A stretch of 59,764 nt of DNA, the filler included, from Dirinaria sp. TL-2023a (taxonomy: Eukaryota), in the NCBI GenBank assembly GCA_051941275.1. It is 5 parts of 5 records of this genome, joined end to end, with 100 filler letters (N's around TTAATTAATTAA, not from the genome) between each part and the next. Parts side by side here need not be neighbours in the genome. Positions count along the whole stretch, not along the records: positions 47,914 to 59,764 come from JAVEBF010000810.1; 4 more parts are not named here. One strand, 5' to 3'. Below are positions 23,888 through 53,822 of the stretch, in pieces. Positions within the stretch are counted from its first letter, which is position 1, and every line of letters begins with the position of its first letter. Under the pieces are notes generated by a model, which made no database searches, had not been told where the DNA came from, and was given only the letters and a program-made list of their open reading frames with translations. Position numbers and translations under genes: made by a program.

Positions 23888-23987
23888 NNNNNNNNNNNNN
23901 NNNNNNNNNNNNNNNNNNNNNNNNNNNNNNNTTAATTAATTAANNNNNNNNNNNNNNNNNNNNNNNNNNNNNNNNNNNNNNNNNNNN
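23888..23987. other. Artificial contig spacer
   Basis: N44-TTAATTAATTAA-N44. Confidence 0.97.
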
Positions 23988-35859: not shown

Positions 35860-35959
35860 NNNNNNNNNNNNNNNNNNNNNNNNNNNNNNNNNNNNNNNNN
35901 NNNTTAATTAATTAANNNNNNNNNNNNNNNNNNNNNNNNNNNNNNNNNNNNNNNNNNNN
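35860..35959. other. Artificial contig spacer
   Basis: N44-TTAATTAATTAA-N44. Confidence 0.97.
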
Positions 35960-47813: not shown

Positions 47814-47913
47814 NNNNNNNNNNNNNNNNNNNNNNNNNNNNNNNNNNNNNNNNNNNNTTAATTAATTAANNNNNNNNNNNNNNNNNNNNNNNNNNNNNNN
47901 NNNNNNNNNNNNN
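47814..47913. other. Artificial contig spacer
   Basis: N44-TTAATTAATTAA-N44. Confidence 0.97.
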
Positions 47914-50802: not shown

Positions 50803-51446
50803 ATGGATCCTCCACCCATGAAGACGACGCGTCGGGCGATCGAAAAGCGTCGTAGCCGTCGTGACAATAAAGCTCTGCACAAGTCACTCAAAGGTACGAG
50901 CAGCTTATGTATGAAACAGTAAGACATTGTCTCAGTTAGAAATACACAGACATCTCCGGCACCCGTACCGCTCGCCAGCTCAGGGAACAATTCAATTACC
51001 TGCAGAGACAGAATCGCGCCTGGCTCCAGCAACAAGTCCAGCTCCCCTCCCGCGGTGGGATCACGATCGACGCGGAGTCTGAACTTAAGATCCTGTTTGG
51101 CAAGAGCACTAAAGCAGACGAACACACCAATCTACCAACGTTGGATCACGGGAAAGAACTGTCACCCAATGCAGAACAGGCTTGGGAACGCTTGAGAGCG
51201 GAGAGAGAGGCGGTTGACGAAGAAACGGGGACGGAATTTACGCCAGATTGGTTTGAACGTGGAGCGTTGGGTGAGAAGAAGACGCGTGGTGAGCGAAGGG
51301 CTAGGGCGAGGGAACGTGAGAGGCTCGAGAATGAGATGAGCAAGGTGAATGACTTGTCACTTGGCGATAATGGCGAAGAACGGGATAGCATGGAGACGGG
51401 TCGGACTGAGCGCGAAGGGGATCATCAGCCTGCTGAAAAACAGTAG
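50803..51446 (+). CDS. Small charged hypothetical protein; putative intron 50894-50949
   Basis: MDPPPMKTTRRAIEKRRSRRDNKALHKSLK spliced (GTACGA...CAG) to an open frame that runs through the 51141 ORF; branch point weak. Confidence 0.6.
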
Positions 51447-51923
51447 ATTAGGCTAATTTGGCGAGCACACGAGCAATGGAATACCACCAAAAACCACTTT
51501 CAAGGTGACACTGCGGTATCTAGTGACTTCAAACCTTTACCGTCATGCTTGGAGGCTTTTATTAACCATTGGTCTGCGAAAACCCGTATCACTACTTAAT
51601 ATGCTTTCCTCTAGACGTGGCTAGGTACAGGTACATATAGGTAATGGACATTAGTAAAAGCTTTTGGCAGCCTCGCACCAGTCACAGGTTTCAGTCATTA
51701 TAAGTGCAATGAAAATTCTCGTAGCATCATCCTAGGTTAGGTGTCATTGCAGAGAATACTAGGAAGTCTACCGTTTGCCAGATACTGAAAATCACGTCGC
51801 TTATGAGTTCAGACGCCTGCATCGAAGATTAATGTATACTGTCTGGGATGGTGAGTGTAGACAGAAGTACAGGAAAAGTAGCTACAACAGCTGACCGTTT
51901 GGAAGTCAGAGAATTTTAAAGGT

Positions 51924-52104
51924 TATATAGAATAATTGCTTGCTAAGTTTTCAAGGAATTCCAATGATGGTGCAGAGGGCTGCTCTAGATATTGTGGATA
52001 AAACCGCACTAGTCCCGAGTGCAGGCGCTGATGTGCAGTTGGATTCCTTTTTGCAGGTTCAATGAAGGTTCTCAGTTCGAATCAGAGGATGCCAATTTTT
52101 TTTT
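51924..52104 (+). repeat. Copy 1 of duplicated Pol III-like / tRNA-like unit
   Basis: TATATAGAA, A-box-like TGGTGCAGAGGG 51968, T-arm-like CTCAG-TTCGAAT-CAGAG 52071, T9 run 52096-52104; 87/91 identity with copy 2 in the core. Confidence 0.75.
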
Positions 52105-52440
52105 CTTCTTGGAACAACTTCATGTTAAATTCGTTTTGGCATTTGCTGCAGGCGCCATCCTCCCTGCGCTGCATAATACAAAAAAGACACACCACTTGAT
52201 CCGCCTGATTGACAGATTTTCAAAAGAAGTCATAGCTGTTTGTACGGACACGTACAAAGTAGACGCTTGCTAATGTGACCACTCTATGTACATGTATATC
52301 TCAATGCTTCTTATCTGTCGGTGAAAGTAAATTAGAAGAGACCATGTATAATCGCTCAACAAAGGATGGACATTAGCGAATGTGAAGAAGAGCAAGAGGC
52401 AAAGCAGATCCTTTGAACTTTGGAAAAAAAAAAAAAAAGA

Positions 52441-52624
52441 TATATAGAATAATTGTTAGTTATATTTCAAGGTATTCCAATGATGGTGCAGAGGGCTGCT
52501 CTAGATATTATGGATAAAACCACGCTAGTCTCGAGTGCAGGCGCTGATGTGCAGTTGGATTCCTTTTGTGCTTTTGGTTCCAAGGTCCTCAGTTCAAACC
52601 ACATCGAACCCCTTGGTTTTTTTT
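52441..52624 (+). repeat. Copy 2 of duplicated Pol III-like / tRNA-like unit
   Basis: TATATAGAA, TGGTGCAGAGGG 52484, GTTCAAACC 52592, T8 run 52617-52624. Confidence 0.75.
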
Positions 52625-53822
52625 CTTTTTCTTTTCTTTCCCTTTTGGTTTCCACAATTTCTGTGCATGATGGATTTGACCTCTAAATTCTGACACTCGA
52701 CTTTGTACACGGAGCAATACGTATATTTCACTCTCTTTCAATCCCAAGGTCATGGTTCTCATTGCTGCCAATGGGATGTGTTGCCCCAATTTCAGACTCT
52801 TTGGCAACCCCAGAATGGATCACTACTGAGTTTATGACGGATTACTACTCCCGTGGACATTTGCAATTGCAATCAACGTCAGTGATTCTTTGATAATAAT
52901 CGTTCTTGTGGCACTAATCGACCATTACTTTCCTTCTCCTACAGCTATCACGAAGCTGCCGCCGCACGGAAGAAATCCTAGTTAGGGCAATATACTGCAC
53001 GTATTCGTTTCAAGGCCAGTAAAAGATTCTCTCTTTTCTGTACGGAGAATCTAGATTAATCATGGATCATAGCTCCTACAGCCGTTCGACTCGGGAACGC
53101 ATCCTCACGATCGGATTGGAGAAGCGAAGACAATGAACAAAGACTTAAAGCGCATTGACCCTTGCAAGTACTTCAACGTTCCTTCTTGCTGACAGGAATG
53201 AGATTGTCTTTGTGAAATGGTATACCTACATCTGCAATGAGTTTCAATTGCTCAAGAGGGTTACAACAGCACGACAGCGGCTGTAGTCTACGTTTAAGTC
53301 GTGGAAAGCTAAAGAGAAACAGCGCTTTACGAGGTCACTTTGGCTTTGTTGGATCGCGCAGACTGACGGTGGAATGCGGGTTTTGGTACTATTGGCTTGC
53401 TCATCTGATGTTCGAGAGGCTGCTTCCGAGGTTCGTCCCTCGGTGGCCTGTTCGCCAAGGCACTGCTGAGTCAGTCGCTCTTCCTTTCTTGGCAGAAGCT
53501 CAGGGGCTGAGCGAGTGCAGAGCTGTAGATGGGAATCGAAAAGTTTACTGAACACCTGTGACAAGCCTGGCTTTAATCGAACAGGTACGGAAGCAGCTAG
53601 CTATCGGTATTGCAAGCGCAGTAAGCTTCTGCCTTTTACTGCATATTTTACACATCAACAGAAGTGAGACTCGACAGACGCCGACATTCCCCAGGTGCAC
53701 CTTGCCTGTTCAATGCACGCCGCTAATCGTATCAAGACCTAGCCAATTTACGTTTCTGCGTCAGCGGCCATAGCTCGTAATCTGTAGTAAAGGATCCGTT
53801 TTTGTCCGCGAGCTGCGCAAGA

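What the first reader, a model, noticed from the sequence alone, without database searches (positions are those of the whole stretch)
51924..52624. Duplicated ~180-bp unit with Pol III gene architecture: candidate tRNA-derived ncRNA or SINE
Seen: two copies 516 bp apart in an otherwise gene-free interval. The cores (51961-52051 vs 52477-52567) differ at 4 of 91 positions, all transitions. Each copy has TATATAGAA about 35-40 bp upstream of the core, an A-box-like TGGTGCAGAGGG, a second A-box-like TGATGTGCAGTTGG, a B-box matching GTTCRANNC (GTTCGAATC and GTTCAAACC) after GGTYCTCA, and a T8-9 run. The 3' parts diverge but keep the B-box and oligo-T. Copy 1 can form a near T-arm (CTCAG/CAGAG), and the core a hairpin (CTGC-TC-TAG..TGTGG/CCGCA..CTA-GA-GCAG). 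I could not build a clean cloverleaf. Inference: a dimeric tRNA-derived Pol III transcript (SINE or undescribed small RNA) or a pair of tRNA pseudogenes.
Basis: partly seen in the sequence, partly recalled or inferred. Interest (0 to 1): 0.72.

Follow-up and report, generated by a model that had tools for sequence, protein, structure and literature searches.

The report
Unknown multicopy fungal small-RNA gene family
The two repeats are members of a family of at least 14 similar genes in a lichen-forming fungus that look built to make a folded RNA of about 95 bases of no known family, which matters because it hints at overlooked small RNAs in filamentous fungi, although no transcript has been seen.

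Summary
The duplication is real, and it is the tip of a dispersed family: 14 copies plus one decayed copy in the genome. Only the functional parts are shared: a ~95-nt core (median identity 86%, flanks at shuffle level), the upstream TATA element of this genome's own tRNA genes, an internal A box, a T4-5 run, an extended B box behind it, and a longer T run. This is the yeast SNR6 (U6) promoter layout. The core folds into a rod with compensatory changes at six pairs and an invariant 17-nt block. It is not a tRNA (no acceptor stem), has no Rfam match, and fails the SINE tests; some copies arose by DNA duplication. A second family with a different core uses the same cassette. Best reading: Pol III genes for a stable protein-binding RNA (gene family about 0.8, mechanism 0.45). 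Boldest reading not excluded: the invariant block pairs with U6 where U4 binds (16 bp; found post hoc; 0.12). No transcript and no relative outside this genome could be reached.

The parts
51923..51936 (+). Copy 1 upstream TATA-like element, 45 nt before the A-box T
   Evidence: 10.8 bits with a matrix trained on 28 nuclear tRNA genes of the same genome
51952..51956 (+). Copy 1 start motif CAA|GG; predicted Pol III start at 51953-51955 (inferred)
   Evidence: Motif at the same place in most family copies and in family B; start not mapped
51955..52052 (+). Copy 1 conserved ~95-nt core, rod-shaped RNA ending in T5
   Evidence: Alignment and covariation; model R1 114.8 bits (training member)
51968..51984 (+). 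Copy 1 invariant 17-nt block: holds the A box (51968-51978); complementary to U6 nt 44-61
   Evidence: Invariant in 13 of 13 complete copies; the 16-mer is exact in 14 copies; duplex with U6 -24.7 kcal/mol
51993..52009 (+). Copy 1 apical hairpin, variable, with compensatory changes
   Evidence: Pairs 48/81 and 50/79 of alignment A3 change on both sides
52029..52042 (+). Copy 1 'second A-box-like' motif: 3' strand of the rod, with the tandem G.A partner at 52030-52031 and CTGA at 52028-52031
   Evidence: The CT-to-TC swap in copies C2925 and C330 keeps both flanking pairs in the tandem G.A register
52048..52052 (+). Copy 1 first T run (T5), end of the conserved core
   Evidence: T4-5 at this place in 11 of 13 complete copies; interrupted in C1685b and C2854
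52066..52083 (+). Copy 1 extended B box behind the first T run
   Evidence: B box 100-112 nt from the A-box T in 12 of 12 copies with downstream sequence; median identity 72% against 39% shuffled
52096..52104 (+). Copy 1 second T run (T9), strong terminator candidate
52440..52453 (+). Copy 2 upstream TATA-like element, 44 nt before the A-box T
   Evidence: 12.2 bits
52471..52567 (+). Copy 2 conserved core ending in T4
   Evidence: model R1 108.2 bits (training member)
52484..52500 (+). Copy 2 invariant 17-nt block with A box
52583..52600 (+). Copy 2 extended B box
52617..52624 (+). Copy 2 second T run (T8)

Best explanation
Each unit is an independent RNA polymerase III gene of the SNR6 (yeast U6) layout, one of at least 14 paralogues kept by selection and spread at least partly by DNA-level duplication with birth and death. 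Shown from sequence: shared TATA element, start motif, A box, T4-5, downstream extended B box, second T run, and a covarying rod. Inferred from established Pol III biology: TFIIIC binds the internal A box and the downstream B box and loads TFIIIB on the TATA element; Pol III starts at CAA/G and stops at the first T run, or reads through to the second and is trimmed back, giving a ~95-nt RNA with a 3' oligo-U end of the kind La/Lhp1 binds. Inferred and least certain: the RNA works as an abundant protein-binding (RNP, scaffold or decoy) RNA. Its basal stem with an invariant bulged U and its apical stem are kept for shape only, while the invariant, G.U-rich middle with a tandem G.A pair is the protein recognition surface. 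I put the expressed, selected gene family at about 0.8 and the full mechanism at 0.45.
For: 15 matches in the genome; 14 exact copies of the 16-mer. Identity among copies: core median 0.86 (78 pairs, 13 copies), extended B box 0.72, TATA region 0.62 (shuffled 0.55); flanks 0.45-0.46, equal to shuffles. The upstream element scores a median 14.3 bits at -44.5 from the A-box T (tRNA genes: 11.1 bits at -42); 5 of 2000 random window 70-mers reach the family minimum. Structure: 94.7% of cells paired, 8 pairs with double changes, 0 of 500 shuffles as high, slid controls 36-49% paired; six of these pairs are not alignment shifts, several with G.U intermediates. The basal stem forms with probability 0.90-1.0 in 13 of 13 complete copies. 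Five copies share diverged upstream flanks of 70-83%. A second family with another core has the same cassette (11 matches). Precedent: RUF70, 13 copies with compensatory changes, expressed, function unknown (PMC2566860, passages).
Against: No transcript, Pol III occupancy or protein partner was observed. No relative was found outside this genome, so conservation is within one genome only, and gene conversion could add to core identity. Folding energy is only modestly better than shuffles (mean z -1.4; copy 2 z about 0). The invariant middle pairs never vary, so they say nothing about pairing, and 11 of the 17 invariant bases overlap the A box, so part of the invariance may be promoter. Alignment A3 was fitted to my structure and the copies are related, which inflates the pair counts. 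9 of 27 non-modal pair states break a pair, mostly in the apical stem. The motif seed was chosen by eye after seeing both sets. No Ro60/TROVE gene was found, so the obvious partner of such a stem is missing.
Confidence: 0.45

Rival explanations
1. Pol III-made precursor of a microRNA-like RNA (as Neurospora milR-1 to -4): the invariant 5' arm is cut out as a 19-22-nt guide starting with U and loaded on an Argonaute.
For: Invariant arms with variable loop and basal stem is the pattern of miRNA families. Major Neurospora milRNAs are Pol III products with TATA-like elements and poly-T (PMC3547838, passages). The genome has Piwi-domain genes on 5 contigs (7 matches).
Against: Weak hairpin: MFE index 0.55-0.69, longest stacked helix 5-9 bp, mean z -1.4. 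No clear target excess: 22 non-family matches to the 16-mer at up to 2 mismatches against 14 for the reversed control.
Confidence: 0.13
2. A U6-binding RNA: the weakly paired invariant block opens and pairs with U6 over the AGC triad and the internal stem-loop, the region U4 sequesters, acting as a U4-like chaperone, a decoy or a non-canonical modification guide.
For: The 17-nt invariant block forms 16 bp with the genome's own U6 (nt 44-61), and invariance ends where complementarity ends: -24.7 kcal/mol, against -18.7 for U4 nt 1-16, best -19.4 among 28 tRNA A-box segments, 0 of 41 rRNA windows, 1 of 232 genomic windows and 6 of 500 shuffles that keep the A-box skeleton. Guides for S. pombe U6 C55-C57 are unidentified (PMC10484740, passages).
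Against: Found post hoc. With a 23-nt arm, SSU rRNA gave -25.2 against -25.0 for U6 and one tRNA segment -24.7. Whole-RNA duplexes with U6 were no better than shuffles (80-218 of 300) and cofolding gains were -3 to -9 against -14.4 for U4/U6. A-box-like sequence is partly complementary to U6 anyway (8 bp for two unrelated A boxes). The genome has a normal U4. Only U6, U4, 28 tRNAs, SSU, the 5' 1.9 kb of LSU and its upstream spacer were tried as targets. No D or D' box sits in the canonical place. Fourteen copies are not needed for a guide.
Confidence: 0.12
3. A selfish Pol III element (SINE-like) whose RNA fold is selected for its own stability and copying.
For: Dispersed copies beside unrelated genes, 79-98% identical; one decayed copy (C330); a shared word of 6-7 nt on both sides of 2 of 11 testable copies. 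Low-copy tRNA-related SINEs of 140-493 bp are reported in Aspergillus fumigatus (PMC5063351, abstract).
Against: The TATA element lies upstream of the transcript yet is kept in all 14 copies. Homology stops at the core instead of running to a tail. No shared flanking word in 9 of 11 copies. Five copies share upstream DNA that a transcript could not carry. A real mobile repeat with a B box in the same genome shows the opposite pattern: homology runs on past the B box and its starts show no such TATA element by eye.
Confidence: 0.1
4. tRNA-gene relics kept mainly as DNA elements (TFIIIC/Pol III binding sites, boundaries; like ZOD1 or ETC sites), with core similarity maintained by gene conversion and little role for the RNA.
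For: Promoter parts are conserved; the extended B box looks like a tRNA variable loop plus T arm, and T-stem pairing averages 3.1 of 5. ZOD1 and ETC sites are described in yeast (PMC5356446, passages).
Against: A DNA role does not explain double changes at six base pairs, conservation of ~75 core bases outside the A box, or a T run placed exactly after the basal stem. The core shows no tRNA similarity above shuffles.
Confidence: 0.1
5. A Pol III-made box C/D snoRNA family (like snR52).
For: RUGAUG near the 5' end in 12 of 14 copies and CTGA in 12 of the 14 copies that hold that region, with a terminal stem.
Against: The same TGRTGG precedes the A box of family B, so it may be promoter. The purine of the putative C box covaries as a stem pair and the D box sits 7-8 nt inside that stem, against a C/D kink-turn. 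No conserved D'. Longest complementarity to SSU and the 5' 1.9 kb of LSU is 9-11 nt, as for shuffles (9-12). No Rfam snoRNA match.
Confidence: 0.05

Closest known systems
SNR6 (U6 snRNA gene) of Saccharomyces cerevisiae, promoter layout only (PMC5855946, passages; PMC5356446, passages)
   Same: Upstream TATA box, A box inside the RNA, B box downstream of the first T run.
   Different: A-to-B distance 100-112 nt here against ~200; multicopy; a second long T run after the B box; the RNA is not U6 (the genome's U6 is on C2711).
RUF70 of Yarrowia lipolytica (PMC2566860, passages)
   Same: [quoted passage not shown]
   Different: RUF70 has no promoter of its own and is cut from a tRNA-Trp dicistron; this family has its own TATA, A and B elements and no tRNA leader. 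RUF70 expression is shown; here it is not. I did not compare the sequences.
Pol III milRNA genes of Neurospora crassa (PMC3547838, passages)
   Same: Fungal, Pol III signals (TATA-like elements, poly-T), hairpin precursor.
   Different: Here the hairpin is irregular and weak, the gene is multicopy and the full SNR6-type cassette is present; milR-1 has no predicted A or B box.
Y RNAs and nematode stem-bulge RNAs (recalled, not tested against their sequences except through Rfam)
   Same: About 95 nt, ends joined in a basal stem with one bulged pyrimidine, 3' oligo-U, several paralogues.
   Different: Bulged base is U; no Rfam match; no TROVE/Ro60 gene found; promoter is of the A/B-box type.
AfuSINE2 tRNA-related SINEs of Aspergillus fumigatus (PMC5063351, abstract)
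   Same: Short, low-copy, dispersed units with Pol III promoter boxes in a filamentous fungus.
   Different: No target-site duplication in 9 of 11 copies, upstream TATA conserved, homology limited to a covarying core, DNA-level duplication.
ZOD1, iYGR033c and ETC sites of S. cerevisiae (PMC5356446, passages)
   Same: Non-tRNA loci with tRNA-type boxes; possible tRNA ancestry.
   Different: Those are single relics; this is a family with a conserved, covarying RNA structure.

Membership tests
tRNA gene or pseudogene | Cloverleaf with 7-bp acceptor stem and 5-bp T stem | tested here: not met
   Acceptor 0-4 of 7 pairs, T stem 2-4 of 5, in 11 copies. ARAGORN found 0 genes, but it also missed intron-bearing tRNA-like genes, so it is weak alone.
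tRNA gene or pseudogene | Match to Rfam tRNA model; similarity to a tRNA of the genome | tested here: not met
   No Rfam match; family loci are not among the 44 tRNA matches; best alignment 22 against null median 24.
SNR6-type Pol III gene (promoter class) | Upstream TATA element | tested here: met
   14 of 14 copies score 10.8-18.3 bits; 12 of 14 at -43 to -47 from the A-box T.
SNR6-type Pol III gene (promoter class) | A box inside the RNA, B box downstream of the T run | tested here: met
   A box in 14 of 14; B box in 12 of 12 copies with downstream sequence.
SNR6-type Pol III gene (promoter class) | Transcription by Pol III | not testable with these tools
   No reads could be laid on the locus.
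SINE (tRNA-related) | Target-site duplications | tested here: not met
   No shared word of 6 nt or more in 9 of 11 testable copies; two A+T-rich hits.
SINE (tRNA-related) | Homology covers the transcript to a 3' tail and excludes upstream DNA | tested here: not met
   Homology falls to shuffle level after the B box; TATA kept upstream; upstream flanks shared by 5 copies.
SINE (tRNA-related) | 3' end shared with a partner LINE | not tested
   No LINE of the genome was examined.
Box C/D snoRNA | C and D boxes juxtaposed in a kink-turn | tested here: not met
   Box-like words are present in 12 of 14 copies, but the covarying stem uses the C-box purine and lies 7-8 nt beyond the D box.
Box C/D snoRNA | Guide of 10 nt or more to rRNA or snRNA at D+5 | tested here: inconclusive
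   Nothing above shuffles for SSU and the 5' 1.9 kb of LSU; the rest of LSU and most snRNAs were not available; the U6 duplex has no canonical D box.
milRNA precursor | Long, well-paired hairpin | tested here: not met
   MFE index 0.55-0.69, longest helix 5-9 bp.
milRNA precursor | Discrete 19-24-nt Argonaute-bound product | not testable with these tools
   Argonaute-family genes are present; no small-RNA data.
Y RNA | Ro60 partner and Ro-binding bulged helix | tested here: inconclusive
   No TROVE match in an incomplete assembly; bulged basal stem present but no Rfam Y RNA match.
U4 snRNA | Match to the U4 model; being the genome's U4 | tested here: not met
   The genome's U4 is at C642 (100.3 bits); local similarity of the core to it scores 15, below the top 20 of 200 shuffles.
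SRP RNA | Match to SRP models | tested here: not met
   No Rfam match at E up to 10; the apical loop is a 6-nt A-rich loop, not the GNRA loop of helix 8 (recalled feature). No fungal SRP RNA was found elsewhere in the assembly either.

The most novel reading that the evidence does not exclude
Filamentous ascomycetes carry an unrecognised class of multicopy, SNR6-type Pol III genes for ~95-nt RNAs with interchangeable cores, and this family is one whose invariant, weakly paired arm base-pairs with U6 across the catalytic AGC triad and internal stem-loop: a second, Pol III-made U6 partner beside U4 that could store, chaperone, modify or throttle U6.
Probability: 0.12. Interest if true: 0.85.

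Novelty: new variant of a known kind. Interest (0 to 1): 0.58.

Why it matters
The fungal Pol III transcriptome is usually taken to be tRNAs, 5S, U6, SRP, RNase P, one snoRNA and a few orphans. Here one lichen fungus holds at least two multicopy families (15 and 11 matches) with the same promoter cassette and no Rfam match, and the family studied shows selection on RNA structure. A 14-copy dosage suggests a need for abundance. The alignment, structure and covariance model give direct probes for northern blots and for searches in other Lecanoromycetes. If the U6 pairing is real, it would be a new handle on spliceosome regulation and on the unidentified guides of U6 stem-loop methylation.

Tried and rejected
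ARAGORN on the window: 0 genes. Rfam on the window at gathering scores: 0; on 51700-52800 at E up to 10: two weak lncRNA matches outside the cores; on 12 other loci at E up to 0.1: 0. Sequencing runs: none was listed; this is no evidence either way, and read laying could not be used. Viral contigs: 0. Prokaryote genomes: 2 matches; one scored 24.4 bits with model R1 but lies in an open 224-aa bacterial frame without TATA, T runs or B box, so chance. The covariance model could not be run over the whole genome, so distant members may be missed; the count of 15 is a floor. Model R1 does not match family B, C1237, C18, C493 or U4. Family A against family B: best local score 24, at the 99th centile of shuffles and confined to the A-box region, so no common descent shown. 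rRNA guide: nothing above shuffles. U4 descent: not significant. Whole-RNA pairing with U6: not significant. Earlier findings by sequence or relatives: none. One fold (L230) was taken on the wrong strand and is ignored. Literature searches (listings seen) named no such family; the motif search gave 5 unrelated papers. The library lacks most subscription journals and I searched no supplements, where a small-RNA catalogue could hold it.

Full report
Setting. The window is stitched from five contigs (N gaps); the finding lies on G000:C810, between a reading frame ending at 51446 on the + strand and a Ras-family (Spg1-like) gene on the - strand. The neighbouring WD40 protein is identical to a database protein labelled Dirinaria sp., and the next named relatives are mostly lichen fungi, so this is a lichen-forming ascomycete. 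The assembly has 27.7 Mb in 3105 contigs and is fragmented.

Observation. ARAGORN and Rfam give nothing on the cores.

It is a family. A DNA search of the genome gave 15 matches on 13 contigs. A 16-mer from the core has 14 exact copies, each inside a family copy. Thirteen copies are complete, one (C2151) is cut by its contig end, and one (C330) keeps only the 3' 56 nt and the trailer, its 5' part lying under an opposite-strand reading frame with a DUF7791 match. Neighbouring genes differ from locus to locus. The count is a floor, because the structure model could not be run over the whole genome.

Anatomy. Copies share islands, not a block. Median pairwise identity is 0.86 in the core (range 0.79-0.98, 78 pairs), 0.72 in the extended B box, 0.62 in the TATA region (shuffled 0.55), and 0.45-0.46 in flanks, the same as shuffles. 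I trained a 14-position matrix on the upstream DNA of 28 of the 44 tRNA matches (left out: 15 on contig C26, which looks mitochondrial, and one on C3015, which looks bacterial). The 14 family copies score a median 14.3 bits at -44.5 from the A-box T; tRNA genes, leave-one-out, 11.1 bits at -42; 5 of 2000 random window 70-mers reach the family minimum, and 10 of 1400 shuffled family upstreams reach the family median, 131 the minimum. The seed for the matrix was chosen by eye after seeing both sets. A B box follows 100-112 nt after the A-box T in 12 of 12 copies with downstream sequence, always behind a first T run that ends the core, and a longer T run follows it (8 or more T in 10 of 11 copies with sequence). 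This is the layout described for yeast SNR6: TATA, internal A block, downstream B block (PMC5855946 and PMC5356446, passages). Whether Pol III stops at T4-5 or reads to the second run is open; that T4 is too short for budding-yeast Pol III is recalled.

Structure. RNAalifold gives a rod. With a tandem G.A register in the middle, which alone tolerates a two-base swap in C2925 and C330, 94.1% of cells pair on the MAFFT alignment and 94.7% on the model-fitted one; 8 pairs change on both sides; at most 2 of 500 shuffles reach any measure on the first alignment and none on the second; slid controls pair 33-49%. On a tree of the 13 complete copies, two of the double changes are register shifts in C2925/C2569, while six pairs in the basal, middle and apical stems show real double changes, several through G.U intermediates; 18 non-modal pair states keep pairing and 9 break it. 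The basal stem forms with probability 0.90-1.0 in 13 of 13 copies and carries an invariant bulged U. Stability is modest (mean z -1.4; copy 2 about 0). The middle is invariant and G.U-rich, so its pairing is untested; a 17-nt block on the 5' arm never changes. Related paralogues inflate such counts, so I take this as good but not proven selection on structure.

What it is not. Not a tRNA: acceptor 0-4 of 7 pairs, T stem 2-4 of 5, no similarity to the genome's tRNA 5' halves above shuffles. Not a dimer: each copy is a full cassette. Not a SINE by the tests I could run: the TATA element lies outside the transcript, homology has no tail, 9 of 11 testable copies have no flanking direct repeat (C150 and C1685a have a 6-7-nt A+T-rich word), and five copies share 70-83% identical upstream DNA up to about 330 nt away, which shows DNA-level duplication. 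A real mobile repeat with a B box in the same genome shows homology running on past the box in tandem units. Not U4 or U6, which are present elsewhere. Box C/D-like words exist but fail the geometry and guide tests.

A wider class. Earlier notes of this scan mentioned similar layouts in this genome, so I searched for the extended B box: 47 matches against 8 for the reversed control. Besides tRNAs and this family they revealed family B, with the same TATA, start motif, A box, T run, B box and T run but another core (11 matches), a single gene on C1237 with a similar basal stem, and two longer RNA-like units on C18 and C493 with the same trailer; none of the loci tested matches Rfam or model R1. 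Unchecked notes describe the same layout in other ascomycete genomes; I treat them as leads only.

U6 complementarity. The invariant 17-nt block pairs with nt 44-61 of the genome's U6 (16 bp, one bulge on each side), the stretch holding the AGC triad and stem-loop that U4 sequesters (PMC5855946, passages; placing the triad on this U6 is my inference). The energy is -24.7 kcal/mol, against -18.7 for U4 nt 1-16 and at best -19.4 for 28 tRNA A-box segments; 0 of 41 rRNA windows, 1 of 232 genomic windows and 6 of 500 A-box-preserving shuffles reach it. Against this: it was noticed post hoc; with a 23-nt arm SSU rRNA scored as well (-25.2 against -25.0); whole-molecule tests were not significant; and few targets were tried. 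I give it 0.12.

No paper listed in ten searches names such a family; supplements were not searched. The closest precedent is RUF70 of Yarrowia (PMC2566860, passages). Other papers seen: PMC3547838 (passages), PMC9757828 (passages), PMC10484740 (passages), PMC5063351 (abstract and outline).

Verdict. A real, probably functional family of Pol III small-RNA genes of no known RNA family, with a known promoter type. I commit to a stable protein-binding rod RNA as the most likely mechanism (0.45), ahead of milRNA precursor (0.13), U6 partner (0.12), selfish element (0.10), DNA-level relic (0.10) and snoRNA (0.05). Expression and function are not shown. Interest 0.58.

Noticed in passing
G000:C1412, C1111 (2), C697, C1507 (2), C235, C1624, C2104, C745, C1295 (L255-L265); divergent copy on C2451 (L249): Family B: 11 matches with the same Pol III cassette (TATA, start motif, A box, T5-7, downstream B box, T run) around a different ~95-nt core; no Rfam match in the loci tested.
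   Followed up: partly
G000:C1237 (L244, minus strand, upstream of 7472-7489): Single gene with the same cassette and a similar basal stem and T run, but an unrelated centre.
   Followed up: partly
G000:C18 (L217:1190-1545) and C493 (L228:1480-1810, minus): Two longer (~270-290 nt) RNA-like units ending in T4-5, extended B box and T run; no Rfam match at E up to 0.1.
   Followed up: partly
G000:C16, C812, C875, C1361, C2447, C2500, C2829, C2968, C3083; a related start right after the C2854 copy (L011:446): A short mobile repeat in tandem units, starting with TG and preceded by a purine-rich tract, with a B box inside; it looks like a small non-autonomous LTR element (TRIM-like; label recalled).
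   Followed up: partly
G000 whole genome: No match to the fungal SRP RNA model and none to TROVE/Ro60; the assembly is incomplete and the search heuristic.
   Followed up: no
G000:C330 (L015:1502-1612, minus): Decayed family copy: 3' half, T5 and B box intact, no TATA, 5' half under a 412-aa opposite-strand frame with a DUF7791 match.
   Followed up: partly
window:48057-48144: Four tandem copies of a 24-nt unit near the start of contig C810, in frames that read as a short Q/P/Y-rich repeat.
   Followed up: no
G000:C3015 (L190): A tRNA-Leu gene with CCA-like end, G+C-rich flank and no TATA element; looks like a bacterial contig in the bin.
   Followed up: no
window:11909-12008, 23888-23987, 35860-35959, 47814-47913: N gaps: the window joins five separate contigs, so distances across them mean nothing.
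   Followed up: yes
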